DNA of 64,000 bases from a virus (Duplodnaviria; Caudoviricetes): IMG/VR virus record IMGVR_UViG_3300010429_002123; one strand, written 5' to 3'. The notes below the pieces were generated by a model. The model was not told the DNA's origin. It saw only the letters and a list, made by a program, of their open reading frames with translations, and ran no database searches. The position numbers and the translations under genes were made by a program. Positions 7,169 to 50,973 of this stretch are shown here, in pieces (the stretch's first letter is position 1; each line of letters starts with the position of its first letter).

Positions 7169-7747
7169 ATGCTGATTGAACTCGAAGAAGGCGTGAAAAG
7201 AGCACAAAGTATATATTTCAGGGACTGGTATGATACTCATAAAGATTCCTGGAACTCTGAAAGAAAAGAGAAAAGACAGAACCCCTCTTTCAAAGAACAG
7301 GAGAGAAAGAGAAGGATTCGAATGAAGTGGGGAAATTATATTCCGCCGGGAGACATCGACCCTACCCCACAGATAGAGACTTTTAAAAATCACACTGTTA
7401 CACTTTCTCTACCTGTCTCCAGAACAGAAGCCATTGATTTCCTTTGTGTTCCTATGAAGATTGTGACGAACAGCCTGGGTGTGTGCCACAGGACTTACCT
7501 ATACTGGGTCAGCAAAGGTCTGATAACAAATACAATGTTTAAGCAGGGAACTGAAAACTTTATGCCCCTTGAAATTGCAGAAGCCTTCCTCTTTAATCTG
7601 AAGTATAAAAGCTACCCCTACAAAGACATAAGAAACTGGGTGTTTCTAAGAAAAGTTAAACTTGCACAGGAAGATTTTTTAAAAAAATTAAAACCCTTTG
7701 GCCTATCCCAGAAGGTCTTCCAAAGGAAGACAGAGAAAAAGAAATAA
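7169..7747 (+). CDS. putative MerR/excisionase-like HTH protein
   Basis: LGVCHRTYLYWVSKGLI resembles a MerR-type HTH. Confidence 0.4.
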   Translation: MLIELEEGVKRAQSIYFRDWYDTHKDSWNSERKEKRQNPSFKEQERKRRIRMKWGNYIPPGDIDPTPQIETFKNHTVTLSLPVSRTEAIDFLCVPMKIVTNSLGVCHRTYLYWVSKGLITNTMFKQGTENFMPLEIAEAFLFNLKYKSYPYKDIRNWVFLRKVKLAQEDFLKKLKPFGLSQKVFQRKTEKKK

Positions 7748-7836
7748 GAAGAACTTACGTCAACAACCCACGACTGAAGTCACGGGAATTACCCTGGTTA
7801 AAATAAGATTTAAAATAAGATTTTGAACAAGAAGGA

Positions 7837-8199
7837 GTGGTAAGAGTGGACGAAACCGTCACAAAAGATACACAGACAGCTACGATGCAGACACGGGAAG
7901 GGTATAAAAAGGTTACTAAAATGTACACCTCAAAAGGCAAAGTCATCAGAGAAGACAGCCCCTTACAGGAGACTATCTTTGTTCGAGACTTCTTAGGAAC
8001 CTCAGGAAAAGTTTCCATTAACCTGGGAATGACTCTCTCCCTCGGAGAAGGCACCTATGAATTCGTAAGGGTTGACGTTGGGGTTGAACTTCCCTGTTAC
8101 CCGGAAGAACTAAAAGAAGCAAAAACCACCGCATACGAATTCGCAAAAAGTGAGTTATTTGCGAATGCTCAGGAAGTGAGAGAAAAAATACCAAAGTAA
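7837..8199 (+). CDS. hypothetical phage protein
   Basis: 120-aa ORF ending immediately before the array-1 scaffold. Confidence 0.55.
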   Translation: MVRVDETVTKDTQTATMQTREGYKKVTKMYTSKGKVIREDSPLQETIFVRDFLGTSGKVSINLGMTLSLGEGTYEFVRVDVGVELPCYPEELKEAKTTAYEFAKSELFANAQEVREKIPK

Positions 8200-8201
8200 A
8201 G

Positions 8202-8345
8202 ACATCGACGGAAAGTTAAAATACGTGACAAATCCAGTCACTGTCTCGGAGTTAACTTCTTTTTAGAAGTTTCTGAGACAAGGCTTAGAAAGTTTTCAGT
8301 GAGTCAGCCACTTAAAGAAAACGAGTAATTAAGCCAATCTAGCTG
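8202..8345 (+). ncRNA. conserved structured RNA scaffold fused to mini CRISPR array 1 (tracr/omegaRNA-like)
   Basis: Homologous to 9071-9204, 13558-13690 and 46505-46636(-); stems GTGAC/GTCAC, TGTCTCGGA/TCTGAGACA, AACTTC/GAAGTT, GGCTTA/TAAGCC covary between copies. Confidence 0.8.
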
Positions 8346-8510
8346 GTTTCCGAGGAAACATGGTTAGAGGGAAAGACGATAGGGGTGTTTTTGTCAACTT
8401 TTCCGAAGCTCAGTTTCTTAGGGAACATGTTTAGATGGAAAGTACGCCTCATACCTTTCACCTCGACTTCTCTTGAAAGTGTTTCTAAGGAAACATGGTT
8501 AGTTGAAAAG
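8346..8510 (+). CRISPR. mini CRISPR array 1 (3 repeats, spacers 37 and 38 bp)
   Basis: 30-bp repeats at 8346, 8413, 8481 (GTTTCCGAGGAAACATGGTTAGAGGGAAAG and variants). Confidence 0.9.
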
Positions 8511-8548
8511 GGAAAGGGAAAGCGTTCAGATGGAAAGGTGGAAAAGTA

Positions 8549-9088
8549 ATGAAAAGAGAAGAGAACGGAAAAATAAAGAAAAAACACGTGCCTGCTAAAG
8601 TATTCCCTCCAGGAGAGTTCCTTAAGGAAGAACTGGAAGAGAGAAACTGGACAAAGGAAGAACTCTCTCAAAAAACAGGGATACCCCAGCAGGTAATAGA
8701 AGACATATTAAATCACAAAGGTGAAGTGACAGAGGAAATAGCTTCTCTTCTCGCTAGAGCTCTGGACGAACCGGAAGATTACTGGGTATGTTTGAGCAGA
8801 AACTACTTCGAGAGAAAAAAAGTCATTGCCCTCGAAGAGTCAAATCCTTGTAGATGCGGGGGAAGGGTCAGACATACAGGAAAGGTATATTATACCGCCC
8901 CGGCTTATTATGAAATGAAGTGTGATGAGTGCGGGAGAATAAAAGACATAAAAGAGGCTCCCAGTATTCCTGTAATAGAGTGTACAGAGGAAGAACTCTT
9001 CAAAAGACATCCTGAGGTGAGAGAACTTTATGAGAAGTTTCCTCATTTACGAAGAAGTGAGTCCGAAAAGACATCGACGGAAAGTTAA
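8549..9088 (+). CDS. HigA-like XRE HTH protein with C-terminal zinc ribbon
   Basis: FPPGEFLKEELEERNWTKEELSQKTGI...LARAL..PEDYW is the HigA pattern; CRCGG...CDECG; C-terminus TSTES* lies inside scaffold 2. Confidence 0.75.
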   Translation: MKREENGKIKKKHVPAKVFPPGEFLKEELEERNWTKEELSQKTGIPQQVIEDILNHKGEVTEEIASLLARALDEPEDYWVCLSRNYFERKKVIALEESNPCRCGGRVRHTGKVYYTAPAYYEMKCDECGRIKDIKEAPSIPVIECTEEELFKRHPEVRELYEKFPHLRRSESEKTSTES

Positions 9089-9204
9089 AATAAACGACAA
9101 ATCCAGTCGTAGACTCGAAGTTAACTTCTTTTTAGAGGTTTTTGAGTCGAGGGCTTAGAAATCTTTCAGTTTATAGAAAGCAAGTAATCAAGCCCGGCTA
9201 ACGG
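9071..9204 (+). ncRNA. conserved structured RNA scaffold fused to mini CRISPR array 2
   Basis: ACGAC-AAATCCA-GTCGT; GACTCGAA/TTTGAGTC; GGGCTT/AAGCCC; 3' CCGGCTAAC pairs with GTTAGTTGG of repeat 1. Confidence 0.8.
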
Positions 9205-9347
9205 GTTTCTGAAGAAACATAGTTAGTTGGAAAGTTAATTGGAATACCCATTTCAGACAGTTTCGAGAGCACGGTTTCTGAAGAAACATGATTAGTTGGA
9301 AAGAAAAAGAAGGTCAAGGTTCTGAAGAAACATGATTAGTTGGAAAA
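9205..9347 (+). CRISPR. mini CRISPR array 2 (3 repeats, spacers 39 and 14 bp)
   Basis: Repeats at 9205, 9274, 9318 (GTTTCTGAAGAAACATGATTAGTTGGAAAG). Confidence 0.88.
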
Positions 9348-9392
9348 TAAAGAGTTAATAGAGAAATTACATAATAAAAAAGGAGAGAGTGT

Positions 9393-12053
9393 ATGAGCAG
9401 AAAAAAAGTATCCCTGGAGGAAACTCTGGCCGCTATTAACAAGAAGTTTGGAAAAGGAACTATAATGCCTGTGAGTGAAGCAAAAAGCCTGAATTACATC
9501 AGAATTCCCACAGGTATTTTTAGTTTAGACGTTGCTGTAGGGGCTGGTTATGGTCTTCCGAGGGGAAGAGTTTCTCTTATAATAGGAGAAAAGTCCACAG
9601 GGAAAACGACTATATGCATGAAGACGATTGCTACCTGGCAGAAATACTGTAGATTCTGCAATACGGAGATAAAAGACCGTATAATAGAAATAGAACCGAA
9701 GGAAGAAATAAAACCCGAAGTAAAAGAAGAGGTAAAACCTGCAGTAAAGGGAGGAAAAAACACCCCTGAACCGGTAAAAGGGAAAAAACCTCCCGAGCCA
9801 CCAAAAGGAAAGAAACCTCCCGAACCTCCGAAAGAAGAGAAAAAGAAAGTTCAAAAAATTGTCACTAAGTGTGAATGTGGTAAAAACAAACGTATGGTCT
9901 GTGTGTATCTCGACGGAGAGGGAACTTATGACCCTCTATGGGCAAGTCATCATGGCGTAGACAATACCTCAGTAATAATGTTACAGCCTGAGTTTGCGGA
10001 ACAGTGTGCTGACGTTGTAGAAGAGCTGATACGCACTGGGGATGTTGACTTAATCATCGTTGACAGTATCGCAGCCCTCGTACCTGCCTCTGAAATAGAA
10101 GCTAGTGCAGAAGACCAGCAAATGGGAACCCACGCGAAAATGGTGAATAGAATGTGCCTGGAAGGAAACCAAAGGGTAATAAACGAGCTTACTGGAGAAC
10201 TTATCCGAGTTAAAGACTTAAAGGCTGGAGTTACGCTTACTTCCGTGGGAGAAGACAATAAAATAAGAAAGAACGTGGTTACAGAAGTGTTTAAAACAGG
10301 TAGAAAAGACTGCCTGAGGATAAACAACACACTGGTTCTCACAAAAGACCACTTAGTTTTTACAGACTCTGGCTGGGTAGAGGCTGGTAAACTCACCCGT
10401 AATCATCTTATCGCAAGACCAAAAAACCTTCCAGTTTTTACCACAGGAACCTCGGACTTTTTTAATGTGGAAGCCCGTCTCCTCGGTTATGCCCTCTCTG
10501 CCGAAGGTAACCCGGAAGCCTGGAAACGCGGGGGTAAGCACGAAGTAGAAGATAAAAGAAGAGCCATAGAGTTCTTTGGAGAAAGACTTCCTCTTCTGAC
10601 CTTTGAAGACTACAGTCAAATACTTTCTTTAGACCTGGGAAAAGCTCCGCATTTGAGAAGGTATAGAGACTTGTTTATAAAACATAACCTGAGTAAAGAG
10701 ACTCTCGGGATTATTCCTAAGGCCATCTTTGGGGGAGATATAACCCAGATAAAAAACTTTATAGAAGCCATGTGGACAGGAGGAGGTCTGGTCAACCCCA
10801 CAGAAAAAACGTTGACTTACTTAACCGTTTCTGAGACCCTGGCTTATCAGTTAAGACATCTCTTATTAAGGTTTGGAGTATGGGCGTCACTCGGTGTAAG
10901 CGAGTTCTCCTCAAGGTCTTACCCCTATGGGAAAAGATACCTTCTTACCGTAGCGGGTAAACAAAATGTGAAGAGATTTTATGAAGCCTTCTCTCTCTTA
11001 GACGAGAAGCAAGACAGGTTAAAAAGAATAGTAGAAAGATGGAAAAATCAATCTGAATTACCTATTCCCGCACAGGAGCAATGCACTAAAAAAGAGGTGG
11101 AAACCTTAATAGCTCTCTTAAAGAAGAAGAAAATATCTGGAACAGATGTTTGTTGCTTCATAGGTCTTTGCCGGAATGCTTACCCGGAGCACAAGGTCTA
11201 CACCTATGAGATATTAAAAAACCTCGTAGTTAAGTTTGGTCTTCAGGAGTTAATTCCTATGCTTGAATCTGACCTCTGGTACGAGCCTATTATAAATATA
11301 GAAGAATATGGGACTGAAGAGGTCTATGACATTTCCATGAAAAATGAAGAAAACTTCCTGTGCGAAGAGTATGTGGTGCATAACTGCAGGGCTCTCAGTT
11401 CCTCTATGAACAGTCTTGGGATAGAGTGCGAGACAAAACCCCATGTAATTCTGATTAACCAGAAGAGAGACAAGCTGGGCTTTTTTGGAGGTACTACCAT
11501 ACCAGGTGGAAAAGGCCAGTGGTACACAGCAGGCATAATAGTAGACATGAGAACCCCCCATAAAATCGGAGAAAACGGAAAGTTAGACCCAAAACAAGAC
11601 AGCAGTGACTATTACAAGACCGTAGAAACAGTAGGCTCCCTTCATAACTTTGAGGTTGTGAAAAACAAGACTTATATCCCTTTTAAACGTGGGTCTTTCC
11701 GCATCTACGGCCAGACTTGTAATAATGAAAGCCTTTCTGTCAGAAAGGGAGAAATAAACACGGAAGAACAAATATTACGTGTAGGTTTAAATACTGGAGC
11801 TATTTTGCTGAGAGGAACCTCCTATGTATTTCAAGACGTTATCTTTGGGATAGGAAAAGAGAAGGCTCTACAGGCGTTAAAAAGTAACCCGGAGTTACAG
11901 GAGAAAATAAAGGTTGTTATTCTGGAAAATATAAAAAGTGAGCTGGCTTCAAGCAGGGATTTATTTGAGGCTAACCAGGACATGCCCGACGGAATAGACT
12001 CCCTGTCTTTTGAACTTATGTCTGAAGAGCCCACAGAAGACAGTGGAGAGTGA
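9393..12053 (+). CDS. recA: RecA recombinase with intein and Zn/Pro-rich insertion
   Basis: INKKFGKGTI, IPTGIFSLDVAVG, GEKSTGKTT (Walker A), LIIVDSIAAL, INQKRDK, TIPGGKG. Confidence 0.93.
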   Translation: MSRKKVSLEETLAAINKKFGKGTIMPVSEAKSLNYIRIPTGIFSLDVAVGAGYGLPRGRVSLIIGEKSTGKTTICMKTIATWQKYCRFCNTEIKDRIIEIEPKEEIKPEVKEEVKPAVKGGKNTPEPVKGKKPPEPPKGKKPPEPPKEEKKKVQKIVTKCECGKNKRMVCVYLDGEGTYDPLWASHHGVDNTSVIMLQPEFAEQCADVVEELIRTGDVDLIIVDSIAALVPASEIEASAEDQQMGTHAKMVNRMCLEGNQRVINELTGELIRVKDLKAGVTLTSVGEDNKIRKNVVTEVFKTGRKDCLRINNTLVLTKDHLVFTDSGWVEAGKLTRNHLIARPKNLPVFTTGTSDFFNVEARLLGYALSAEGNPEAWKRGGKHEVEDKRRAIEFFGERLPLLTFEDYSQILSLDLGKAPHLRRYRDLFIKHNLSKETLGIIPKAIFGGDITQIKNFIEAMWTGGGLVNPTEKTLTYLTVSETLAYQLRHLLLRFGVWASLGVSEFSSRSYPYGKRYLLTVAGKQNVKRFYEAFSLLDEKQDRLKRIVERWKNQSELPIPAQEQCTKKEVETLIALLKKKKISGTDVCCFIGLCRNAYPEHKVYTYEILKNLVVKFGLQELIPMLESDLWYEPIINIEEYGTEEVYDISMKNEENFLCEEYVVHNCRALSSSMNSLGIECETKPHVILINQKRDKLGFFGGTTIPGGKGQWYTAGIIVDMRTPHKIGENGKLDPKQDSSDYYKTVETVGSLHNFEVVKNKTYIPFKRGSFRIYGQTCNNESLSVRKGEINTEEQILRVGLNTGAILLRGTSYVFQDVIFGIGKEKALQALKSNPELQEKIKVVILENIKSELASSRDLFEANQDMPDGIDSLSFELMSEEPTEDSGE
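10155..11384 (+). mobile_element. intein in RecA (410 aa, degenerate LAGLIDADG-type endonuclease)
   Basis: CLEGNQRV...LTKDHLV...YVVHN followed by Cys; exteins rejoin as VNRM/CRAL. Confidence 0.9.
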
Positions 12054-13203: not shown

Positions 13204-13575
13204 ATGGGGCTTATCGTTAGAGAAGACCTGGTTCAGGACTTAAAAAACACAGAACAGTTATTGGACAAGACCCTTTCTTTAGCCCGAACGCTTATACATA
13301 AGTATGAACAACCGGGTATGGGGCTGGGGGAAGAACTCCCTTACGAGTTCTGGAACTTGCTCAAAGAAGTAGACTGGACAACGACGTGGTTTCTTGAACA
13401 CGCCTTTGACAAAGAGGAAACCCCTCTTTACACAGACGGCTTACTTCTTTTTGAATCCTGTTGTCTGGGACTGGAAAAACATATGAGAGATACGAAAAAA
13501 CTCTGTGGGATATTTAAGATGATGGCCACACTCTTTCGAGATAAGACCTTAACTATAACATCGACAGAAAGTTAA
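13204..13575 (+). CDS. hypothetical protein
   Basis: 123-aa ORF; C-terminal TSTES* supplied by scaffold 3. Confidence 0.55.
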   Translation: MGLIVREDLVQDLKNTEQLLDKTLSLARTLIHKYEQPGMGLGEELPYEFWNLLKEVDWTTTWFLEHAFDKEETPLYTDGLLLFESCCLGLEKHMRDTKKLCGIFKMMATLFRDKTLTITSTES

Positions 13576-13690
13576 AATAAGCGACAAATCCAGTCGCAGT
13601 CCTGAAGTTAAGTCTTTTTTAAGACTTTTTGGGACAGGGCTTAGAAAACTTTCAGTTTATAGAAAGTGAGTAATCAAGCCAAACTAACGG
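13558..13690 (+). ncRNA. conserved structured RNA scaffold fused to mini CRISPR array 3
   Basis: GCGAC-AAATCCA-GTCGC; GTCCTGAA/TTTGGGAC; AAGTCT/AGACTT (compensatory versus AACTTC/GAAGTT); ACTTTC/GAAAGT. Confidence 0.8.
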
Positions 13691-13955
13691 GTTTCTAAAG
13701 GAACATGGTTAGATGGAAAGTATGTGGAGACCGTGCACTACATCGACCGGCTTAACGTTTCTAAAGAAACATGGTTAGATGGAAAGCATGGGCAACTTAC
13801 ATTAGTAGCTTCATTGGCAACAAGGTTTCTAAAGAAACATGGTTAGATGGAAAGGTTACTATGTTTCTAAGGAAACATGGTTAGTTGGAAAGATTCGAAA
13901 TAGTCTATATCTACTTTTTTATTGTGTTTTTGAATAAACATGGTTAGTTGGAAAG
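13691..13955 (+). CRISPR. mini CRISPR array 3 (5 repeats, spacers 36, 38, 8, 33 bp)
   Basis: Repeats at 13691, 13757, 13825, 13863, 13926; terminal repeat degenerate. Confidence 0.93.
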
Positions 13956-14929: not shown

Positions 14930-15535
14930 ATGATTGCGGAAACATGCGAGATAATTGTCTTAGAGGGTATAGATGGCTCCGGGAAAACTACACAGGCCAA
15001 ACGGGTAAAAAAAGAGCTGGAAACAAAAGGTTACAGAGTGCACATGATAGCATTCCCCAACGAGGGGACTGATTACGGGTTTAAGCTGAGGTCATGGTTA
15101 CAGGGGGCAAGAAAATTAAGTCCACAAGCCCTGCAGTTACTCTTTGAATTGGATAAATACGTTTCTTTAAGCAATTTTGCTCAGGAGAGCCTTTATTATG
15201 ATATTTTACTGCTTGACCGCTACTGGCTCTCCGGGGTTGTTTACGGAGTAGCAAGGGGGCTTGACCTCGAATGGTGCAGAGCTCTGGTACAATACCTACC
15301 GAAAGAGAGCATGGGTTTTTTATTTGCACTGTCATTGGAGAAAAGCACAAAAAGAGCCCAGTTTGACCGAACAAGTAAAAAGGAGTTACAGGAAAAAGTT
15401 CATGAGTTTTACGCTTCTCTTACTCCCCCGTCCTACATAAGAATAAGTGCAGAGACTGCTGAGATAGAGGAAACAAGTTCTCTAATTGTCGAAAAGATAA
15501 CAGAAAGGTTTCCTTTACAGAGAAGAGCCTTTTGA
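14930..15535 (+). CDS. tmk: thymidylate kinase
   Basis: IVLEGIDGSGKTTQ P-loop, LLDRYWLSGVVYG. Confidence 0.9.
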   Translation: MIAETCEIIVLEGIDGSGKTTQAKRVKKELETKGYRVHMIAFPNEGTDYGFKLRSWLQGARKLSPQALQLLFELDKYVSLSNFAQESLYYDILLLDRYWLSGVVYGVARGLDLEWCRALVQYLPKESMGFLFALSLEKSTKRAQFDRTSKKELQEKVHEFYASLTPPSYIRISAETAEIEETSSLIVEKITERFPLQRRAF

Positions 15536-18998: not shown

Positions 18999-20663
18999 GT
19001 GCAGATATTACAGACAAGACAGGTCATAGCATTTGATACAGAATACGTAGACCGTGACTTTCCTAACGTTGATGTAGTAGGAATGTCTCTTGCATGGAAA
19101 GAGAACGGCCACGTAGACGGTTGTTACATACCTGTTGGGCACACAACGGGGGAGTCACAGTTACCTATAGAACTCGTTGCCGGGGCTATGAAACCCATAC
19201 TAGAAGACCCCGAAAAATTGATAGTCATGCACAACATGAAAGCTGACATAAAAGCGTCCTGGCTTATGGGTATTTACATAGCGGACGCTCCTTACTGGAA
19301 CGCCCTTCTGAACGAGGGGATTACTATTCCTTACAAAAAAGCCATAAGAGAAACCCACTTATGGGACACCATGCTTGCCTCCTGGATACTCGAACCGGAA
19401 AGAGAAATTTCTCATAAGTTAAAAAAGCTTGTAAAAGAACTTCTCGGGTATGAGATGCAGGAGCTGACAGACTTTGCTCCCAGAGAAAAAGCCTTGTTTA
19501 CAAAAACAGGAAAACCAGTTAAGTTAAAAGCTAACGAAGTTGCCCCTGATGAAACGAAGGTTCAGATATTAAAAAAGAGCAAAAAAGCTCTTCTGAGAGT
19601 AGATAAAGTCCCCATAGCCTCCCTCGGCAGGTACGCCTGGGACGACGCCGTGTGGACTTATAAACTGTATGAATACTTCAAAAACATCATAGAAACCTCA
19701 AATGCGGGGAAGGATAACAAGATTTTCTATGAAGTTCAACTCCCCTTTGCTGTAGTGCTTACGGAAATGGAAATCATAGGCTCTCCCATAGACGTCGCTT
19801 TACTGAAAGACATGGAAACAAGAGCAAAAGCAGAACTGGTAACGATAGAGAATAGGATTTACGAGTTGGCAGGAAAAACCTTTAACATAAAGAGCACAAA
19901 ACAGTTAAATGAGGTGCTTTTTGACACTCTCGGCTTAAAGCCTGAGGGTGACATGAACAAAAAAGGGGAATACTGCACAGACAAAGACGTAATGAGAAAA
20001 TATAAGAGAGAGTATGATGCCTTTAAGGCAGGTCTGCAGAAAAAGGGGGCTGAATGTGAAATAGCCTACTGGATGCTAAAACAGAGAGAGCTTACTAAAC
20101 TCATCGGGACATATCTGGAAGGTCTCGTCCTGTTTGCCAAAAACGGCAGAATTCATACCAGTTTCAACCAGCTTTCAAAAGATGAGAGAACCGGAACAAA
20201 AACCGGGAGGTTGAGTTGCGTGGCTAAAGATACGTTACTCTATGTAAAGACCGGAAGAGGCCGGGGAAAACTTCAGGAAGTTGAAATATCCAAACTTGAC
20301 TTGACCATACCCACGAGAATTATGACATGTGAGGGAAGATATAAACCCATAAACAAACTGATTTTCAAGGGTGAGGACGACCTCTACGAAATAACCACAA
20401 CTGCCGGGTGGAGACTGGTATGCACAAAAGAGCATCAAATCCTAACCCCTCACGGATGGTGGGTATCTGTTGGAGGCTTATTCGTAGGGCAAGAGGTCTA
20501 CGGAAACAAGCATAGGTGCACTCCTACAAACTGCACAGGTTACAAAAGAAGCTTCATAACCGCTATACGTCCCTTTGGAAGAGGGGAAGTATGGGACATA
20601 GAGGTAGCAGAAGACCAGTCTTACTACGCCGGAGGCTTTTTAAACCATAACAGTTCGAATCCT
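18999..20663 (+). CDS. polA: family A DNA polymerase, exon 1 (3'-5' exonuclease, thumb, intein 1)
   Basis: AFDTEY, MHNMKAD, DTMLASW, YAWDDA, FNIKSTKQL, TKTGRLS|intein|SSNP. Confidence 0.92.
20217..20651 (+). mobile_element. mini-intein 1 in DNA polymerase (145 aa)
   Basis: CVAKDT...CTKEHQI...FLNHN followed by Ser. Confidence 0.9.
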
Positions 20664-21382
20664 CAAATGGGGCTACTTTCCGGTGACGGAAAGTTAGAAT
20701 CTCTGTTAACTCGGTGGAATCTAAGTTTCTCTCCAGAGGAATATGACAATACCGAGCCGAGCTTCGCAGGAATGCGAAGAAGGTGTAACGACTACCTTGA
20801 TGTAATCTAGAACAGATAGAAAAGGCACGAACACAGAGTATCTTAGGTTGATTACCAAGATTGACAAAATATTTCTCCCGTCTATAATAAGAGCGAGGTG
20901 AAGAAAAATGAGAAATGATTGGACTAAGTCTGAAATAGCGTGGTTCAGAGAAAACTACCCAAAACACGGGTTGCATTACTGTTCTGATATTTTAAAAAGA
21001 ACCACAAGTGCCATTCTAATGAAGGCACATTTATTAGGTTTAAAAAGACGAGGAAAAGGAAGAAAAGACAGGGTGTATACATACGACGGTTACATTACTG
21101 TTTCCTCTGAGGGTGATAGATACCAAGTGCACAGAAGAGTAATGGAAAACCATATAGGAAGGAAACTGTCAACAAAAGAGTTAGTTCATCACAAAGACGG
21201 AAACAGAAAAAACAATTCCATTGAAAACCTAGAAATTTTGTCAAGAAGTGAACACATGAAAATTCACTACCCGCAGAGAATGAGAAATTCAAAAGGTCAG
21301 TTCGCCTAAGATAAAGATATAGTCTGAACTTGCGGGAAACCGCAAGAATTTCAGGATAAAGAGCCTGAAAGGTAACAAAATG
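20664..21382 (+). mobile_element. group I intron 1 in polA
   Basis: Exon ends in U (CCT), intron ends in G; removal restores SSNP|NLQNI; R-like GTAACGACTA and S-like AAGATATAGTC elements. Confidence 0.9.
20908..21309 (+). CDS. intron-encoded HNH homing endonuclease
   Basis: VHRRVME...VHHKDGNRKNNSIENL...EH..IH; internal promoter TTGACA..TATAAT at 20861-20888. Confidence 0.9.
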   Translation: MRNDWTKSEIAWFRENYPKHGLHYCSDILKRTTSAILMKAHLLGLKRRGKGRKDRVYTYDGYITVSSEGDRYQVHRRVMENHIGRKLSTKELVHHKDGNRKNNSIENLEILSRSEHMKIHYPQRMRNSKGQFA

Positions 21383-22443: not shown

Positions 22444-24930
22444 ATTTTTTACGGAATGGGACCAAGTTCTCTTGCAGAAACCATAAACAAAGAACTTGAC
22501 GACCCAAGAGACTTTTTAACGGAGGAAGAAGCTAAAAAAGCTATTTCAAACTTTATGGCTACTTACAAAGGCGTTTCACGTTATATTGAAAAATATAAAG
22601 ACATAGCCAGAGAAGTCGGGGTTGTAAAAACCCTGACAGGAAGAGCTCGCCCCTTACCCGCAGCGATGGTTAAGGCTCCCTGGAAAATAGCCGACCCGAA
22701 GGAGAGAAAAAAAGCTATTGAGGAAAAAGGACACGCCGAAAGGGCTGCGGTAAACTGCTTCGACGAAGAAACAGAGGTGCTTTCCCAAAGAGGCTGGCTT
22801 TCTTACAAGAACTTAACTGCCTCAGATGTGTTAGCCACAATAACGGGGGAAGGTGTTTTAGAATGGGACACTCTAATAGCTGTCAGTATGTTCCCGGGCT
22901 ATGATGAACCATGCATAGAGTTCTCTCACCCGGAAATAAGTGCCCTTACAACCAAAAATCACAGGTGGCTTGTATATGACAGAGTAGAAGCCAAAAACTT
23001 TTTTGTAACTACTGAAAATCTTTGTGCCCGGCACGAGATATTAAAAACTGCTACAAACCCACAGAAAGAAGCAGGTATTTCAGACATGGAACTTCTGAAA
23101 CACCCCCTTTCTCTGGAGTTTCTACTAAATCTGTCCCAAAGACAGTGCAGACTTCTTTTAGAAACCCTGATAGGAACAGGGTCTACTTCAATAAGCCCTG
23201 ACCTCTACCAGATACTGTGCTTTTTATCTGGGAAGAGCTATGAACTCTCCTTTAGAAACCTGTCTTCATACGCTGGATACACTCCCGGAAAGGACAGAGT
23301 TTATCTCCTCCCTGAGCACAAAAAAGAGAAAACAGTCTCTTTTGTCTGGTGCCCTACTGTAAAAAACGGGACGGTTGTGGTCAGAAGAAAGGGCACGGTT
23401 TATATCACCGGTCAAAGCCCCATTCAGGGGTGTCTCCCATCTTCCGCTCGAATTCTAACCCTTGAGGGATACAAGACTATAGACAACTTGATAAAGAGTT
23501 ATCCCGGAGAGAGACTGCAGGTATGGACGGGTTTTAACTGGAAACCAGCAAAAGTTCTCCCTATGGGTAAGGCTCCACTCATGAAAGTGACTTTTAAAAA
23601 CGGCTATAGTGTAAAGTGTGACAACCGTCACAACTTTAAAGTCCTTTCCGACAAACTGGAGTGGAAAAATATCTTGTCTCTTAAAGAGGGGGATATGGTC
23701 GCCACTCCTTACGGAGAGCAACACTTCGGGCAATACAACGCGAGAAACCTGGACATCTACAGGGGTAGAAATATTTGTGAACGGAGGTTTGACTATAATC
23801 TTCTCTTTTACCTCTCAGGTTTTCTGCTTTCGAGGGGAGAAATCATAGATGAGGGTGAGAAAACTCACATAAAGATTAGATTTACAACTTCTCTTCTTTC
23901 TAGTCGGGTCATAACCCTTGAAGAAAAAGTAAGAAACGTGCTTGTTAAATCTCTCTTAGAGAATGGAATCCTCTTTACCTGTGAGAGCAGGCGAAGAGAC
24001 GTGGGGACATCCCCCCATTCAGTTGTTGACCTTATAATAACTGACCAGCAGTTGCTTAAAGTTTTCTTAAGAGAGTTTGACGTCAGGAGTGGAAAAGTCC
24101 CTGAGCACATTTATAAGAGTGTCCACCCCTTACGCAGGCTGTTCTTAAAAGGTCTCGTGGAGGGAGGAGGACAACTCGACGGGAATAAAGTAATTCTTAC
24201 TTTTTCTGAACGTAATCTGGCTGAAGAGATAGCCTTTCTCTTAACCTCCGGGGGTTTTGTCTTCGAGGTAAAGAACTCTCCTAAGCTATCTCTATACCAG
24301 ATAACAATACAGCACAAACACGCCTTCCTGGCCTGGATTGGAATTTTCTCCGGCTCTTTCTACAACAGGACGAAGAAAAAATGTCCCGATGTATACATAA
24401 AAGAGTTTTTTGAAAAATTCACCCGAAACGCCAGAGGAAGGGTTACTCCCGGAATAACCCGCCAGTCCTACAGATACAAAGAACTGTTAGAGAAAAGACC
24501 AGAAAAATGCCATTTACATTTCCTGTACAAAATGGCAAGAGATTTCGGAATTGTCTTTGACGAAAAGTATGACTACCTTATAGTAGATAAAATTGAGTAT
24601 CTCGGTGAGGAACAGGAGATGTACACCCTTTCTGTTGACGACGACTTACATCAATTCGTAGCAGACGGGGTAATAGCCAAGAATAGTGCCGCCGACATAG
24701 TCTCAATAGCTATGAGAAACATTCGCCTGAAGCTCATGGAGACCGGAGACTGGTGGAAAAATTGCCAGCTCTTAATCCAGGTGCACGATGAGCTCAATTT
24801 TTTGATAAAGGAAACAGAGATAGAAAGGTTAGTTCCTCTCATAAAAAGTGAGATGGAAAGTGCGGTTAAGCTAAGAATACCCCTGGTGGTGGATTACCTT
24901 GTTGGGGTGAACTGGTTTGAGTGCAAGTAG
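22444..24930 (+). CDS. polA: family A DNA polymerase, exon 3 (inteins 2 and 3, motif C)
   Basis: IFYGMG, TLTGRAR, ERAAVN|intein|SPIQG|intein|SAADI, QVHDEL. Confidence 0.92.
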   Translation: MFYGMGPSSLAETINKELDDPRDFLTEEEAKKAISNFMATYKGVSRYIEKYKDIAREVGVVKTLTGRARPLPAAMVKAPWKIADPKERKKAIEEKGHAERAAVNCFDEETEVLSQRGWLSYKNLTASDVLATITGEGVLEWDTLIAVSMFPGYDEPCIEFSHPEISALTTKNHRWLVYDRVEAKNFFVTTENLCARHEILKTATNPQKEAGISDMELLKHPLSLEFLLNLSQRQCRLLLETLIGTGSTSISPDLYQILCFLSGKSYELSFRNLSSYAGYTPGKDRVYLLPEHKKEKTVSFVWCPTVKNGTVVVRRKGTVYITGQSPIQGCLPSSARILTLEGYKTIDNLIKSYPGERLQVWTGFNWKPAKVLPMGKAPLMKVTFKNGYSVKCDNRHNFKVLSDKLEWKNILSLKEGDMVATPYGEQHFGQYNARNLDIYRGRNICERRFDYNLLFYLSGFLLSRGEIIDEGEKTHIKIRFTTSLLSSRVITLEEKVRNVLVKSLLENGILFTCESRRRDVGTSPHSVVDLIITDQQLLKVFLREFDVRSGKVPEHIYKSVHPLRRLFLKGLVEGGGQLDGNKVILTFSERNLAEEIAFLLTSGGFVFEVKNSPKLSLYQITIQHKHAFLAWIGIFSGSFYNRTKKKCPDVYIKEFFEKFTRNARGRVTPGITRQSYRYKELLEKRPEKCHLHFLYKMARDFGIVFDEKYDYLIVDKIEYLGEEQEMYTLSVDDDLHQFVADGVIAKNSAADIVSIAMRNIRLKLMETGDWWKNCQLLIQVHDELNFLIKETEIERLVPLIKSEMESAVKLRIPLVVDYLVGVNWFECK
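22756..23415 (+). mobile_element. intein 2 in DNA polymerase (220 aa, ends Gly-Gln)
   Basis: CFDEETEVL...TTKNHRW...VWCPTV..GT...YITGQ followed by Ser. Confidence 0.85.
23431..24684 (+). mobile_element. intein 3 in DNA polymerase (418 aa, LAGLIDADG-like)
   Basis: CLPSSARIL...CDNRHNF...LKGLVEGGG...GVIAKN followed by Ser. Confidence 0.88.
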
Positions 24931-25785: not shown

Positions 25786-25862
25786 CTGAAAAGGATTTTC
25801 GTTATCACGAAAAGGAGTCTCGTTGCCACGAAAAGGATTTTCGTGATAACGAAAAGGAGGAG
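25786..25862 (+). promoter_or_regulatory. tandem 21-nt GGA-loop hairpin repeat ending in the SD
   Basis: CACGAAAA-GGA-TTTTCGTG-type units; last unit is AAAAGGAGG before the ATG at 25867. Confidence 0.75.
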
Positions 25863-27387: not shown

Positions 27388-30300
27388 ATGCAAGTAAACG
27401 GATATTTCAGATTAAAGAAGGACCACCCCCTCGTCCCAGAATTCAAAAAAGACTGTGTCCTTCCAAACCCTGAGTATTTAAACAACTTAAAGATGGGAAT
27501 ATCTACAAAGGGTCTTTCCCCCACAGACTTACTCTACGAGCAGGAAGGAGACGAAATTCTCTTTCCCAGAGGAATGGCCAACCGGCTAAAAGGAACAGAA
27601 GACATCAGGGACTCCATGTCTTACGGTAAGGCCGTAAACTTCAAAGAAAGAATAACCCTTCGACCAGGTCAAAAATCTTTTTATGAAAAGTTTGTAAAGG
27701 GTGTTACTGACCTTTATGGTGCCAGTGCTCAGGCCGGGTGCGGACAAGGAAAATGTCAGACACTTTCTACTCCTGTCCTTACGCCAGAGGGGTTCAAAAC
27801 TCTTGGAAACATTCTTCCCGGTGACATGGTAATAGGCCGGGACGGAAAACCCACGAGGGTGTTGCAGACTTTCAGAAACGGAGAAAAAGACTGCTTCAGA
27901 GTAACCTTTAGTGACGGAAGTTTCGTAGACTGTGATGATGACCAGCTATTTCAGCTAAAGAATTCGGAAGCTCCTGTCACTCTTAAGAAAATACGGAACA
28001 GTCCCCCGGAAAAATTGGAAGTCCCTTTGTGTGAACCTGTAGACTTACCGGAAAAAGAGCAGGTGTTCTCTCCTTACTTACTTGGACTTTTGCTCTCAGG
28101 AGGGGCTTTTAAAGAGGGAAAACTCTATCTGTATGACAAGAATGAGCAAGCTAAAAACACGGCAAAAAGTGCCCTTTTAAAAACCCACAAATTAACAGGT
28201 CTTCCGCTGGGAAACAGCAGAACTTTGATATTTGAAAGATTAAAAAATGTTTCGGAGGAACTTGACAAACTCCTCCAAGATTCCCTGTCTTCGCCGGAGC
28301 AACTCAAGAGTGTAGGAGGCTCTTCTTCTAAAATACCTTACAATTACTTATTCGGGAGTAAAAGCCAGAGAAAAGCTCTTCTTCAGGGTGCTCTCGACAT
28401 GGGAGGAAGGGGAAAAGCAAATGTCTGGGACTTCAAAACACAGTCAAGAACCCTGGCAAGAGGGTTAACCTTTCTGGTAAGCTCTCTCGGTGGTACTTGC
28501 ACAAGTTTTTCCAGAGAAAAAACCTACCATCTCAGAATTGTCCTTCCTGAGGACTTCTCCTCCCCGGAAGGCTGCGGGGAAACTCCCCATAAAAAAATAA
28601 AAACAATAGAGCCCATAGGAAAGAAAGAAGTAGGATGTCTATTGGTAGACAATAAAGACCATCTTTATTTAGTAACTGAAACCTGTACAGTAATACACAA
28701 TACAGTGGTGTGTCTAAAAGTAATAGCGTCCCTGCAGAAAACAGCTCTGGTAATTGTGCATAAGACCTTTCTTGTAAACCAGTGGATAGAACGCATACAG
28801 GAATTCTATAATATAGAAGATAAAGACATAGGAATACTCTCAGGAGATGACATAGACTGGGCAGACAAAAAGATAAGTGTGGCCTTAGTACAAACACTCC
28901 TGGCTAAAGACCTCCCAAAAGAGTTCTATAACTACTATGGAACAATCTGTGTTGACGAGGAGCACAGGTTCGGGGCAGGAACCTTCAGAACAGTGATATG
29001 GAGATTTCCCGCAAGATACCGCCTGGGGGTCACGGCAACGCCCACCAGAAACGACTGTCAGGAAAAGGTATTCTTTACACACATAGGAAAAATAGTCTCT
29101 GTAATGTCTGACAGCAGAAAACAGCAGGTGGACGTCCACATGGTAAAAACAAATATTCCTCCCATTACTAACGAGAGACCCTTCTATGACTTCAGAAAAA
29201 AGATAAATCTCACTAAGGTTGTATCCTTCTTAATAGAATGCGAGTCTCGAAACCTTCAAATACTCAACTACCTCGTCAAGGCTGCGGAGAAAGGCCGAAA
29301 AATATTAGTATTAAGTGATAGAAGAGGACATCTGGAAACATTATCTTCTTTATTAAAAGCCTATTGTAAAGCAAATGAACACAAAAACATAAACATTTCT
29401 CAAGGGTATTACATGGGAGGAATGAAGCAGGAAGACTTAGACATTTCTACAACAAAAGACGTGATATTCGGCACTTTTGCAATGGCCTGTATAAGCGAAG
29501 AACAGGACTTTATTGACTACGTGACAGGGGAAACACAGAAATTTAAAAACCTTGTCGGAAAAAGCGTAAACTGCATTACCCATTCAGGAAAGATAACACA
29601 GTCGGGAAAAGTCATTTCTTCAGGTAAAAAAGAGTGCTTTAAACTGACACATTCCTTTGGGGACGTCTTAGCTACGGCAGACCACAAAGTCTTAACCGAA
29701 AAAGGCTGGGAAGAAGTCGCTAAGCTATCTTTACAGAGCCATCTGAGCCTCCCCAAAAAATTGGAAATAGAACAGGTCATAGACACTCCTATAAAAACCA
29801 GCGAACTCTGGCTATTAGGCTGTTTCATAGGTGACGGAAGCATGAGCCAGTATAAAAAAGGGGTCTTGTCGTTCATTTCCGCAGACGAAGACGTCCTAAG
29901 AAACGTGAAAAGCATTTTAGAAACACATAACATGACCCTTAAAAAAGTGCGAAAATACCGTTACAGAGTCTGTGGGGAGGGAAAAAACGGAAAGGGAGTA
30001 AAAACATGGTTAAGACATCAGATAGAAAACCTCGGACTCGGGGTCACGGCACGCAGTAAAGAAATCCCTCAGCCCTTTCTACTTCTCCCGGAACAGAAAA
30101 TAGGAAGTCTGCTCGCTGGACTGTTCGACACAGACGGGTGCGTAACTAAAAGAGGAGAGATACTTTTCTCTTCATCTTCTCAAAAATTAGTAACACAAAT
30201 TAAGTTTTTACTCTGGAGGCTGGGTATTTTTTCAACCCTCTACCCGTCGGCGGAGAATATGATGTTTGTCCTAAGCATCTCCCGGAATTTTAGCGAGCAG

Positions 30301-30915
30301 TTTTTAAAAACTGTCCCGTTAAAACTAAGAAGAAGAAAACAAAGAATAGAAGACTCTATGAGTAAAGGAAGAAGAGTCACAAAAAGCCCTACCAACTATA
30401 TCCCAACGTATTTTACAAAACTTCTTTTTTCTGAACTGAAAAGAAGAAAAATCCGAAAAACGGACATAGTGAGCCTGCTGAAAGAACAAAAAATGTCCTT
30501 TTCATGGGTTAACCACAACAAGGCAGCGGAAAAACAGAGCTTTAGCTTTCTTATTAACTTCTTTCAAATACCGGAGTTAGCAAAAGCCTTAGACTATATC
30601 TGGGCAAAAGTACAAAGCATTGAAAACATGGGGGAACAAAAAGTAGTAGATATGTCAGTGCCTGCTGATAACTCTTTTTTAGCGGGCGAAGCTCTCGTAC
30701 ATAACTGTGAGGGCTTAGATATACCCTCTATAGATACGGTAATCCTCGCCACACCTAAGGGAAGTGTCCAGCAGGCAGTCGGGAGAATAGTCCGGGAAAA
30801 AGCAGATAAAAAAGTATCTAAGGTAGTAGACATGATAGATGAGATAAGTATCTGTAAAGCCCTTTCTTTTAAGAGACTGAAGGAGTATAAAAAGCTAAAG
30901 TATGACATACACTAA
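27388..30915 (+). CDS. SF2 DNA helicase (XPB/UvsW-like) with two inteins
   Basis: LRPGQ, GCGQGK|intein|T, DEEH, GVTATPTRND, MA|intein|CEGLDIPSID, QQAVGRIVR. Confidence 0.92.
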   Translation: MQVNGYFRLKKDHPLVPEFKKDCVLPNPEYLNNLKMGISTKGLSPTDLLYEQEGDEILFPRGMANRLKGTEDIRDSMSYGKAVNFKERITLRPGQKSFYEKFVKGVTDLYGASAQAGCGQGKCQTLSTPVLTPEGFKTLGNILPGDMVIGRDGKPTRVLQTFRNGEKDCFRVTFSDGSFVDCDDDQLFQLKNSEAPVTLKKIRNSPPEKLEVPLCEPVDLPEKEQVFSPYLLGLLLSGGAFKEGKLYLYDKNEQAKNTAKSALLKTHKLTGLPLGNSRTLIFERLKNVSEELDKLLQDSLSSPEQLKSVGGSSSKIPYNYLFGSKSQRKALLQGALDMGGRGKANVWDFKTQSRTLARGLTFLVSSLGGTCTSFSREKTYHLRIVLPEDFSSPEGCGETPHKKIKTIEPIGKKEVGCLLVDNKDHLYLVTETCTVIHNTVVCLKVIASLQKTALVIVHKTFLVNQWIERIQEFYNIEDKDIGILSGDDIDWADKKISVALVQTLLAKDLPKEFYNYYGTICVDEEHRFGAGTFRTVIWRFPARYRLGVTATPTRNDCQEKVFFTHIGKIVSVMSDSRKQQVDVHMVKTNIPPITNERPFYDFRKKINLTKVVSFLIECESRNLQILNYLVKAAEKGRKILVLSDRRGHLETLSSLLKAYCKANEHKNINISQGYYMGGMKQEDLDISTTKDVIFGTFAMACISEEQDFIDYVTGETQKFKNLVGKSVNCITHSGKITQSGKVISSGKKECFKLTHSFGDVLATADHKVLTEKGWEEVAKLSLQSHLSLPKKLEIEQVIDTPIKTSELWLLGCFIGDGSMSQYKKGVLSFISADEDVLRNVKSILETHNMTLKKVRKYRYRVCGEGKNGKGVKTWLRHQIENLGLGVTARSKEIPQPFLLLPEQKIGSLLAGLFDTDGCVTKRGEILFSSSSQKLVTQIKFLLWRLGIFSTLYPSAENMMFVLSISRNFSEQFLKTVPLKLRRRKQRIEDSMSKGRRVTKSPTNYIPTYFTKLLFSELKRRKIRKTDIVSLLKEQKMSFSWVNHNKAAEKQSFSFLINFFQIPELAKALDYIWAKVQSIENMGEQKVVDMSVPADNSFLAGEALVHNCEGLDIPSIDTVILATPKGSVQQAVGRIVREKADKKVSKVVDMIDEISICKALSFKRLKEYKKLKYDIH
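27754..28701 (+). mobile_element. intein 1 in helicase Walker A (316 aa)
   Basis: CQTLSTPVLTPEG...LQGALDMGG...TVIHN followed by Thr. Confidence 0.88.
29488..30705 (+). mobile_element. intein 2 in helicase (406 aa, LAGLIDADG)
   Basis: CISEEQ...ATADHKV...LLGCFIGDG...LAGLFDTDG...LVHN followed by Cys. Confidence 0.92.
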
Positions 30916-49453: not shown

Positions 49454-49811
49454 TATAGACTGCATATCGTGCAGTCTATAAAAACCCGTAAGTAGCGGGG
49501 CTAACCTTGCTTTTTTCTCCCCCATTTTCAAAAATAGACTGCACGCCGTGCAGTCTATAAGAATGGCGGTATATATAGGTTTTCCTTCTTTTTAGGGCTT
49601 TTTTAGCCTATTATAGACTGCATATCGTGCAGTCTATAATGCCATTATAGACTGCATATCGTGCAGTCTATATGTCAAAATAGACTGCATATCGTGCAGT
49701 CTATAAAAAGTAAAAAGTAAAAAATGTTTTGTAAAAATTAGTAAAGAGAAACCGTTACGGTGTAAGGAGAAGAACTCTCTTTTTATAAAAATATAGACTG
49801 CACGCTGTGCA
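49454..49811. repeat. palindromic iteron-like repeats TATAGACTGCA-N5-TGCAGTCTATA (5 full, 1 partial); candidate replication origin
   Basis: Copies at 49454, 49534, 49612, 49646, 49680, 49792 in an ORF-free AT-rich interval. Confidence 0.85.
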
Positions 49812-50894: not shown

Positions 50895-50973
50895 ATAAAA
50901 AGTGAAAGAAACAAAAAGGATTTTTGTTGACACAAAAAGGATTTTTGTTGACACAAAAAGGAGGAGAACGTAT

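What the first reader, a model, noticed from the sequence alone, without database searches (positions are those of the whole stretch)
9190..9234. Scaffold 3' end is an anti-repeat and the invariant loop can pseudoknot with the repeat end (natural single-guide geometry)
Seen: each repeat begins with a GTTTC-N4-GAAAC hairpin. The bases just before repeat 1 extend it by pairing with the repeat's GTTAG segment, and vary with it: CCGGCTAAC/GTTAGTTGG (array 2), TCTAGCTG/TGGTTAGA (array 1), CTAAC/GTTAG (array 3), CTAACTG/TGGTTAG (array 4). The invariant loop AAATCCA is complementary (TCCA/TGGA) to the TGGAAAG next to most spacers. Known: Cas12f sgRNAs and TnpB reRNAs form a pseudoknot between an upstream loop and guide-proximal bases. 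Inference: possibly an intermediate in which the omegaRNA terminal hairpin was duplicated into a CRISPR array. Caveat: the pseudoknot is only 4 bp, and the first repeats of arrays 1 and 4 carry GGGA/TGGG variants.
Basis: partly seen in the sequence, partly recalled or inferred. Interest (0 to 1): 0.8.

Follow-up and report, generated by a model that had tools for sequence, protein, structure and literature searches.

The report
Phage TnpB guide RNA joined to mini-array
This stretch is where a folded guide-RNA scaffold of a phage's own TnpB/Cas12f-like DNA cutter runs straight into the first repeat of a tiny CRISPR-like array; the proposed loop-to-repeat pseudoknot holds up well, while the "co-varying anti-repeat" shrinks to a constant 5-base pairing, so this is a new example of the recently described transposon-to-CRISPR intermediates.

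Summary
Window 9190-9234 holds AAGCC (3' arm of scaffold stem 3), CGG, CTAAC and repeat 1 (hairpin GTTTC-TGAA-GAAAC, ATA, GTTAG, T, TGGAAA, G).

By walking along the same contig I reached ten such cassettes and the likely effector. This is a 765-aa TnpB-family RuvC protein 21 kb upstream of the window. It has about 1,500 homologues, invariant D435/E551/D646 and a Cas12f/TnpB fold.

- **Pseudoknot: supported.** Loop and repeat end are invariant within this phage. Across 21 distinct homologous guide RNAs they co-vary in one fixed register (positions -7 to -2 before the guide). 111 of 126 cells pair, against 73.5±5.1 in shuffles (0 of 20,000 reach the observed value).
- **Anti-repeat: only partly supported.** The CTAAC:GTTAG core is conserved in 10 of 10 cassettes and sits where ordinary omegaRNAs have the base of their terminal hairpin. 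It shows no compensatory change and is not significant by shuffling.
- **Extensions said to "vary with it": not supported.** They pair in 43% of cells, which is chance level. The array-2 extension uses bases that the pseudoknot needs.

The repeat therefore corresponds to the 3' part of an ancestral omegaRNA terminal hairpin plus the pseudoknot strand. The closest known kind is TranC (Jin et al. 2025). The scan has already noted this system on other windows of this genome, and a natural single-guide layout in another phage.

The parts
9071..9084 (+). Conserved 5' box of the scaffold (ACATCGACGGAAAG)
   Evidence: Conserved at the 5' end of the cassettes. A related box, TCGACAGAAA(G), lies at the 3' end of the effector genes of L031 and L043.
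9094..9110 (+). Stem 1 (ACGAC/GTCGT) with the 7-nt loop AAATCCA at 9099-9105. Loop bases TCCA (9102-9105) form the 5' strand of the pseudoknot.
   Evidence: The stem has two pairs with compensatory changes among ten copies and 100% of cells pair. The loop co-varies with the guide-proximal strand across the family.
9112..9148 (+). Stem 2, a long hairpin with outer and inner helices
   Evidence: Eight pairs have changes on both sides; 99-100% of cells pair. RNAfold z = -3.65 for the whole unit.
9152..9194 (+). Stem 3: GGCTT/AAGCC enclosing TCTTTC/GAAAGC
   Evidence: The inner helix has four pairs with compensatory changes; the outer helix is invariant. It corresponds to the GTCTTA...TAAGA(A)C boxes of ordinary omegaRNAs.
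9198..9202 (+). Anti-repeat core CTAAC (5' arm of the base of the terminal hairpin)
   Evidence: CTA(A/G)C is present in 10 of 10 cassettes and 98% of cells pair with GTTAG. There is no compensatory change, and it is not significant by shuffling.
9204..9234 (+). Repeat 1. Its parts are: hairpin GTTTC-TGAA-GAAAC (9205-9218), GTTAG (9222-9226, pairs with the anti-repeat), the pseudoknot 3' strand TGGA within TGGAAA (9228-9233), and G at -1 (9234).
   Evidence: Of 30 repeats, the hairpin has 5 pairs in 23 and 4 pairs in the other 7, and TGGA is present in 26.
9235..9272 (+). Spacer 1 (38 nt), the guide of the contiguous single-guide unit
   Evidence: Unique sequence. No other copy in 93 kb of the genome and no match in the phage collection.
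9273..9347 (+). Repeat 2, a truncated 13-nt spacer, and a degenerate repeat 3
8202..8510 (+). Cassette 'array 1': scaffold 8202-8344, repeat 1 at 8345-8375, three repeats in all
13558..13955 (+). Cassette 'array 3': scaffold 13558-13689, repeat 1 at 13690-13720, five repeats in all
46343..46640 (-). Cassette 'array 4': scaffold 46640 down to 46506, repeat 1 at 46505-46475, three repeats in all
46648..46676 (-). Sigma-70-like promoter (TTGACA, 17 nt, TG-TAACAT) reading into cassette 4 in the scaffold-to-array direction
   Evidence: 10 of 12 consensus positions, extended -10.

Best explanation
Window 9190-9234 is the 3' module of a TnpB-type guide-RNA scaffold (omegaRNA/reRNA-like), fused without a gap to the first repeat of a mini CRISPR-like array.

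In the transcript, read scaffold first and then array, the fold is as follows:
- AAGCC closes stem 3.
- CTAAC pairs with GTTAG of the repeat and forms the base of a terminal hairpin. The top of that hairpin is the repeat's own GTTTC-N4-GAAAC stem.
- After one unpaired base, TGGA pairs with TCCA in the stem-1 loop. This is the TnpB/Cas12 pseudoknot, lying 4-7 nt before the guide.
- G(-1) follows, then the spacer, which is the guide.

The RNA is most likely loaded into the phage's own 765-aa TnpB/Cas12f-like RuvC nuclease, encoded 21 kb upstream of the window. It would direct DNA cleavage at sites complementary to the spacer.

The repeat unit equals the 3' two-thirds of the ancestral terminal hairpin plus the pseudoknot strand. 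Each later repeat+spacer therefore lacks only what the scaffold supplies. It can be completed by a scaffold in trans (tracrRNA-like) or by an alternative fold in cis.

Shown here: the sequences, the scaffold fold, the family-wide pseudoknot covariation, the effector's family and fold, and presence in RNA libraries. Inferred: the 5-bp anti-repeat pairing, RNP formation, cleavage, RNA processing, and the use of spacers after the first.
For: 1. **Scaffold is a structured RNA.** Among ten cassettes, 15 pairs change on both sides and 94.7% of cells pair, against 87.0% in shuffles. No shuffle of 500 reaches the observed covariation, and slid registers pair in 31-49% of cells.
2. **Pseudoknot.** Across 21 distinct loop/3'-strand combinations from homologous loci, 111 of 126 cells pair, against 73.5±5.1 in shuffles (0 of 20,000). 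Each of loop positions 2-6 shows two to six standard pair types (three or more at positions 3-6). The five array-bearing systems keep the register with different letters: TCCA:TGGA (this phage), TTCCA:TGGAA (L031), TCACA:TGTGA (L043), GGCA:TGCC (L088/L100), GTCA:TGAC (L040). They score 22 of 30 cells, and only 2 of 120 permutations do as well. The register matches ISDra2 at -6 to -2 (PMC10097598).
3. **Same order of modules as ordinary omegaRNAs of the family**.
4. **Model search.** A covariance model of the phage cassettes finds L031:6675-6869, directly downstream of that locus's effector gene and ending at its first repeat (23.5 bits, E 0.0019 in 510 kb).
5. **Sister loci have their own scaffold-to-repeat pairings.** L031 has CGTCTTAGT:ACTAGGATG, matched by 13 of 5000 shuffles. 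L043 has CGACTAAG:CTTGGTTG, matched by 277 of 5000.
6. **Effector.**
   - 1,536 homologues; one cluster carries the NCBI name 'RNA-guided endonuclease TnpB family'.
   - D435/E551/D646 are invariant.
   - Foldseek best hits are AsCas12f (1e-12), ISFba1 TnpB (TM 0.66 by target), ISDra2 TnpB and LaTranC.
   - It forms a clade with the L031 and L043 proteins, support 96/92.
7. **Direction.** A promoter reads into cassette 4 in the scaffold-to-array direction.
8. **Expression hint.** A metatranscriptome contig covers 7725-9312 at depth 31.6, against about 7 on both sides (weak, contigs only).
Against: - The anti-repeat pairing is 5 bp, has no compensatory change in ten copies and is not beyond chance by shuffling. 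One cassette has a C-A mismatch in it.
- The phage pseudoknot is only 4 bp. It drops to 3 bp in the first repeat of array 1, and the two guide-proximal positions that pair in ordinary relatives are A-A here.
- The cassettes in this window lie 29-68 kb from the effector gene.
- No target, TAM, processing site or RNA end was found.
- Three cassettes near the effector have first 'spacers' of only 6-8 nt. There the contiguous single-guide unit cannot be the working form.
- The phage protein sits on a very long branch (2.1 changes per column).
Confidence: 0.75

Rival explanations
1. The pseudoknot is real, but CTAAC and GTTAG do not pair. The terminal hairpin is only GTTTC-N4-GAAAC. The two 5-mers are conserved because the protein reads them, or for processing. 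'Anti-repeat' would then be a misnomer.
For: There is no compensatory change in ten copies. Shuffles match the helix in 4-19% of trials. The flanking extension pairs at chance level. In L031 the positionally equivalent bases give only a weak 4-bp helix with two G-U pairs.
Against: With the pairing, the hairpin ends exactly one base before the pseudoknot strand, as in ordinary omegaRNAs of the family. The only variation in CTAAC (A to G, twice) keeps a G-U pair. L031 and L043 each have a longer scaffold-to-repeat helix of their own.
Confidence: 0.17
2. The conserved upstream element is a CRISPR leader acting at the DNA level, and the arrays are served by a host Cas system rather than by a phage nuclease.
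For: It lies directly upstream of every array. No effector lies in the window itself.
Against: Compensatory changes show an RNA fold. The element is homologous to the RNA downstream of a TnpB-family gene in L031. A TnpB-family gene flanked by three cassettes lies in the same genome. No host array with this repeat was found in 185,579 species genomes or in the metagenome collection.
Confidence: 0.03
3. The cassettes are decaying relics or decoys: duplicated omegaRNA ends with no guide function, or RNA mimics that soak up a competitor's nuclease.
For: Many spacers are truncated (0, 6, 7, 7, 8, 13, 21 and 24 nt) and the end repeats are degenerate. No spacer target was found.
Against: The scaffold fold is kept by compensatory change in all ten copies. 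Most spacers are unique and 32-39 nt long. The effector keeps its catalytic triad. The region is present in RNA libraries.
Confidence: 0.05

Closest known systems
TranC, transposon-CRISPR intermediates (Jin et al., Cell 2025; known here through PMC13639567, PMC13565253 and bioRxiv 10.64898/2026.03.27.714800)
   Same: A TnpB-derived RuvC effector with short CRISPR arrays and no adaptation genes nearby. The guide RNA is an reRNA whose 3' part has become the repeat and whose 5' part acts as the tracrRNA. Some TranC systems are phage-borne (CauTranC9). Reported arrays have a median of 4.5-5 repeats (medians given for clades 3, 11 and 20).
   Different: Here the scaffold is not separate. It abuts repeat 1, so the first unit is an unsplit single guide. 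There are at least ten scaffold+array cassettes scattered over 70 kb instead of one locus. The effector is long (765 aa) and no Pfam family reaches its cut-off. Placement in a published TranC clade was not tested. The structural match to LaTranC (E 3.6e-8) is weaker than to Cas12f or ISFba1 TnpB.
ISDra2 TnpB omegaRNA/reRNA (Nakagawa et al. 2023, PMC10097598)
   Same: One RNA with the scaffold 5' and the guide 3'. A pseudoknot forms between a 5' hairpin region and bases -6 to -2 before the guide, stacking on stem 1. The effector fold is similar.
   Different: ISDra2 has one guide per element, set by the transposon's right end. Here there are arrays of repeats with unique spacers. No TnpA or transposon ends were seen, and there is no detectable sequence similarity.
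Cas12f (type V-F) tracrRNA:crRNA and engineered sgRNAs
   Same: Best structural matches of the effector (AsCas12f E 1e-12). The guide RNA has two repeat:anti-repeat contacts, one of which is the pseudoknot next to the guide (PMC10097598, Extended Data Fig. 7 legend).
   Different: In Cas12f the tracrRNA is a separate RNA, with a longer repeat:anti-repeat duplex (from memory, not checked here). Here the first contact is 5 bp and the joint is natural.

Membership tests
TnpB omegaRNA/reRNA-type guide RNA | Scaffold 5' of the guide, guide at the 3' end of the conserved RNA | tested here: met
   The order of modules equals that of ordinary omegaRNAs of the family. A promoter reads from scaffold to array.
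TnpB omegaRNA/reRNA-type guide RNA | Pseudoknot between a 5' hairpin loop and the bases just before the guide | tested here: met
   111 of 126 cells pair across 21 distinct systems; 0 of 20,000 shuffles reach this. The phage version is 4 bp and invariant.
TnpB omegaRNA/reRNA-type guide RNA | Encoded at or overlapping the 3' end of tnpB, one guide per element, within IS200/IS605 or IS607 ends | tested here: not met
   The window's cassettes lie 29-68 kb from the gene and each carries 3-5 repeats with spacers (2-5 across the genome's ten cassettes). No TnpA or transposon ends were noted in the stretches read.
TranC / type V CRISPR-Cas | TnpB-derived effector with an intact RuvC triad | tested here: met
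   D435/E551/D646 are invariant in 38 sequences. The fold matches Cas12f, TnpB and LaTranC. The family carries an NCBI TnpB name.
TranC / type V CRISPR-Cas | Array of direct repeats separated by unique spacers, with the guide 3' of the repeat | tested here: met
   30 repeats in ten cassettes; most spacers are 32-39 nt and unique.
TranC / type V CRISPR-Cas | [quoted passage not shown] | tested here: inconclusive
   The 5-bp CTAAC:GTTAG pairing is conserved but shows no covariation. The first unit is unsplit. Use in trans is not testable with these tools.
TranC / type V CRISPR-Cas | Placement of the effector in a published TranC clade or Cas12 subtype | not tested
   No reference sequences of the clades were on hand. 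A profile search of PDB sequences finds only 9j09 (called Cas12n in bioRxiv 10.64898/2026.03.27.714800) at E 1.9e-5.
CRISPR leader (DNA element) | Conserved upstream sequence without a selected RNA structure | tested here: not met
   15 pairs have compensatory changes.

The most novel reading that the evidence does not exclude
The cassettes record a stage before efficient RNA splitting. The split interface is only 5+4 bp, so a scaffold may work mainly with repeats on its own transcript: the first by direct folding, the later ones by looping out the earlier units. That would explain why the phage keeps one scaffold for every 2-5 repeats (ten or more copies) instead of a single tracrRNA. This one TnpB family would then show all three steps side by side: a single omegaRNA, scaffold plus array at the gene, and dispersed scaffold+array cassettes.
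Probability: 0.3. Interest if true: 0.7.

Novelty: new variant of a known kind. Interest (0 to 1): 0.55.

Why it matters
This TnpB family contains ordinary single omegaRNAs and at least two separate array-bearing lineages. The position where the repeat begins can therefore be read base by base against the ancestral RNA: inside the 5' arm of the terminal hairpin, with the pseudoknot strand kept at the repeat's 3' end. This is a natural case of the published idea that type V arrays arose by duplicating the 3' part of the omegaRNA, and of the 'RNA splitting' step, here in a phage.

For practice, it gives a ready-made single-guide design (scaffold + repeat + spacer) for an unstudied 765-aa nuclease. 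It also gives a clear set of compensatory mutants to test.

Tried and rejected
- **Pattern scans.** Scans for the repeat and for the scaffold gave only single chance matches or nothing. The repeat scans covered IMG/VR, 185,579 species genomes and JGI metagenomes; the scaffold scans covered IMG/VR and the metagenomes. Two hits lay inside coding or unrelated sequence.
- **Phage collection.** blastn of 8195-9400 against 50,697 phage records gave no match.
- **Whole genome.** None is held for this window, and ENA loci cannot be searched as records. I walked upstream with four exact-protein look-ups instead. A first look-up with ORF 102-800 found nothing.
- **650-aa ORF downstream of array 4.** It is an HTH/anti-repressor-like regulator, not the effector.
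- **Effector by sequence.** No Pfam family reaches its cut-off and there is no PDB sequence match.
- **Spacer targets.** No second copy in 93 kb of the phage. No exact match in IMG/VR for the first 21-22 nt of three spacers.
- **Covariance model of the phage cassettes.** It does not reach ordinary omegaRNAs (best E 0.44). The correspondence with them rests on the order of modules and short boxes read by eye.
- **An alternative pairing for the repeat.** TAATCA:TGGTTA scores as well as CTAAC:GTTAG in one cassette. It breaks in other cassettes and clashes with stem 3, so I rejected it.
- **RNA runs.** They are contigs only, so no RNA ends, strand or processing sites could be read.

Full report
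**1. What is at the coordinates**

Window 9190-9234 reads AAGCC CGG CTAAC G, followed by repeat 1. Repeat 1 is G GTTTC TGAA GAAAC ATA GTTAG T TGGAAA G.

- The repeat motif occurs 20 times in the window, against 0.32 expected.
- It forms four mini-arrays: 8345-8510, 9204-9347 and 13690-13955 on the + strand, and 46505-46343 on the - strand.
- Each array is preceded by a conserved element of about 135 nt.
- Rfam has no family for it.

**2. Finding the rest of the system**

No effector lies in the window. The 650-aa ORF after array 4 is an HTH/anti-repressor-like protein. Pattern scans of IMG/VR, species genomes and JGI metagenomes found no relatives.

I checked this by walking along the same contig with exact-protein look-ups.

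- The fetched loci are 100% identical to the window where they overlap. They extend it by 29 kb.
- In the resulting 93 kb there are ten cassettes.
- Three of them flank a 765-aa ORF at L029:7384-9681, which is 21 kb before the window's start.

Evidence on that protein:
- No Pfam family reaches its cut-off, and there is no PDB sequence match.
- It has 1,536 homologues. Most are about 500 aa long and match its C-terminal half.
- Some homologues give weak OrfB_IS605 hits. One cluster is named 'RNA-guided endonuclease TnpB family protein' by NCBI.
- D435, E551 and D646 are invariant in 38 aligned sequences.
- An AlphaFold model (pLDDT 76) matches AsCas12f (E 1e-12), ISFba1 TnpB (TM 0.66 by target), ISDra2 TnpB and LaTranC.

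The DNA comes from anaerobic-digester and activated-sludge samples.

**3. The scaffold is a folded RNA**

I counted a hand-written structure on the alignment of the ten cassettes.

- 94.7% of cells pair, against 87.0% in shuffles.
- 15 pairs change on both sides.
- No shuffle of 500 reaches the observed covariation.
- Slid registers pair in only 31-49% of cells.
- Stems 1, 2 (outer and inner) and 3b carry the compensatory changes.

**4. The pseudoknot**

Within the phage the four pairs TCCA:TGGA are almost invariant (97.5% of cells pair). The two positions nearest the guide never pair (A-A). The phage alone therefore says nothing either way.

I fetched 80 viral loci that encode homologues, plus three loci from assemblies. 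Most carry an ordinary omegaRNA downstream of the gene. It ends ...TAAGAAC-C-[hairpin]-A-[GNNNCA]-G.

Its first hairpin has a 6-nt loop. I located that loop by a motif that does not use complementarity to the 3' end. The loop is the reverse complement of the GNNNCA strand:

| Loop | 3' strand |
|---|---|
| TGAAAC | GTTTCA |
| TGACAC | GTGTCA |
| TGATAC | GTATCA |
| TGAACC | GGTTCA |
| TGAATT | GATTCA |
| TGATGC | GCATCA |

The five array-bearing systems keep the same register. This means the six loop bases next to the 3' arm of stem 1, paired with positions -7 to -2 before the guide:

| System | Loop strand : 3' strand |
|---|---|
| This phage | TCCA:TGGA |
| L031 | TTCCA:TGGAA |
| L043 | TCACA:TGTGA |
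| L088/L100 | GGCA:TGCC |
| L040 | GTCA:TGAC |

Over 21 distinct combinations, 111 of 126 cells pair. Shuffled partners give 73.5±5.1, and 0 of 20,000 shuffles reach the observed value. Among the five array-bearing systems alone, 22 of 30 cells pair and 2 of 120 permutations do as well.

ISDra2 TnpB forms its pseudoknot with bases -6 to -2, stacked on stem 1. The authors state that a pseudoknot is conserved in Cas12 guide RNAs (PMC10097598).

**5. The anti-repeat**

- CTA(A/G)C:GTTAG is present in all ten cassettes and 98% of cells pair. Three pairs never vary. One changes on one side only (A-U to G-U, twice). One is broken once.
- No pair changes on both sides.
- Shuffling the scaffold's 3' end gives an equal or better helix in 941 of 5000 trials for one cassette and 203 of 5000 for another.
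- The array-2 extension CCGG:TTGG uses the TGG of the pseudoknot strand, so it competes with the pseudoknot.

What speaks for the core is position. With CTAAC:GTTAG formed, the hairpin ends one base before the 6-nt pseudoknot strand, just as the terminal hairpin does in ordinary relatives.

The sister loci have their own scaffold-to-repeat helices in minimum-energy folds:
- L031 has CGTCTTAGT:ACTAGGATG, matched by 13 of 5000 shuffles.
- L043 has CGACTAAG:CTTGGTTG, matched by 277 of 5000 shuffles.

A covariance model of the phage cassettes finds the L031 element over its full length (23.5 bits, E 0.0019 in 510 kb). It aligns CTGTC/GATGA to CTAAC/GTTAG, which is a weak 4-bp helix.

I rate the 5-bp pairing as likely but not shown.

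**6. Evolutionary reading**

On a protein tree the phage effector groups with L031 and L043, all three array-bearing and phage-borne (support 96/92). The phage branch is long. A second array-bearing group (L040, L088, L100) lies elsewhere among omegaRNA-type members.

In the phage and L031 the repeat starts inside the 5' arm of the terminal hairpin and ends at G(-1). The repeat therefore equals the 3' part of the old omegaRNA, including the pseudoknot strand.

This agrees with two published ideas:
- Arrays arise by serial duplication of omegaRNA segments (PMC10691335).
[quoted passage not shown] 2025, as cited in PMC13639567 and PMC13565253; see also bioRxiv 10.64898/2026.03.27.714800).

**7. 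How it most likely works**

- **Transcription.** It runs from scaffold to array. A promoter with 10 of 12 consensus positions reads into cassette 4.
- **First unit.** It is a contiguous single guide.
- **Later repeats.** 26 of 30 keep TGGA and 22 of 30 keep all five anti-repeat pairs. They need a scaffold in trans or an alternative cis fold.
- **Short first spacers.** Three cassettes next to the effector gene have first spacers of only 6-8 nt. The contiguous form cannot be the only working form.
- **Expression.** A metatranscriptome contig covers 7725-9312 at depth 31.6, against about 7 on either side. This is a weak sign, because contigs give no RNA ends.
- **Targets.** None were found.

**8. 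Verdict**

- The pseudoknot is supported.
- The anti-repeat is a plausible constant 5-bp helix, without the claimed covariation.
- The system is a phage-borne, multi-cassette variant of the TranC kind.
- Other windows of this genome have already been noted by the scan (e1-5466754, e1-5466773, e1-5481652, e1-5481653). A natural single-guide layout was noted in another phage (e1-5375081).

Noticed in passing
window 13720 and 9234 (tables 5c and 7): DNA and RNA run contigs continue after a first repeat into other spacers. One starts GTGGGGAGAAAAAAACAGAG and the other GAGAAGTTCTGTAAAAAGAA. They are either further cassettes elsewhere in the genome or population variants with a different scaffold-proximal spacer.
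   Followed up: no
L040:4160-4400, L088:4125-4225, L100:4124-4420, L109:4125-4360: A second array-bearing lineage lies in the same TnpB family, separate on the protein tree. It has 32-nt repeats ending GTTGCCAG or GTTGACGG and its own in-register pseudoknot letters.
   Followed up: partly
window 8202-8215, 9071-9084, 13558-13571; L031:6663-6676; L043:4356-4368: A 5' box, (A)CATCGAC(G/A)GAAAG, starts most cassettes. A related box, TCGACAGAAA(G), lies inside the 3' end of the effector ORFs of L031 and L043. The dispersed cassettes seem to keep a piece of what was once the coding 3' end.
   Followed up: partly
L029:9905-9925 and window 8443-8479: The spacer-repeat junction CTTCTCTTGAAAG|TGTTTC is shared by two different cassettes (a 13-nt identity at the spacers' ends). 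This suggests recombination between cassettes or a common origin.
   Followed up: no
L029:6144-6262, 7205-7273, 15016-15151: The cassettes nearest the effector gene have first 'spacers' of only 6, 7 and 8 nt. One cassette has two repeats with no spacer between them (L029:15937-15997). Array ends carry half repeats such as GATGGAAAG without the hairpin.
   Followed up: partly
window 36266-36541: A group I intron (Rfam RF00028, 90 bits). Inteins lie in RecA (9393-12053), in the DNA polymerase A pieces (18999-20810, 22456-24930) and in a helicase (27388-30915).
   Followed up: no
window 25788-25858, 38782-38916, 39597-39670, 41694-41742, 50911-50962, 55632-55698: A 21-nt tandem repeat containing AAAGGATTTT recurs in six places in the window. 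It may be a phage regulatory or iteron-like motif.
   Followed up: no
window 49610-49706: Three tandem copies of a 33-nt unit that holds an inverted repeat (ATTATAGACTGCA...TGCAGTCTATAAT).
   Followed up: no
window 7725-9312: In one metatranscriptome this stretch (a small ORF, cassette 1, the HTH gene and cassette 2 up to its third repeat) is one contig at 4-5 times the depth of its neighbours.
   Followed up: partly
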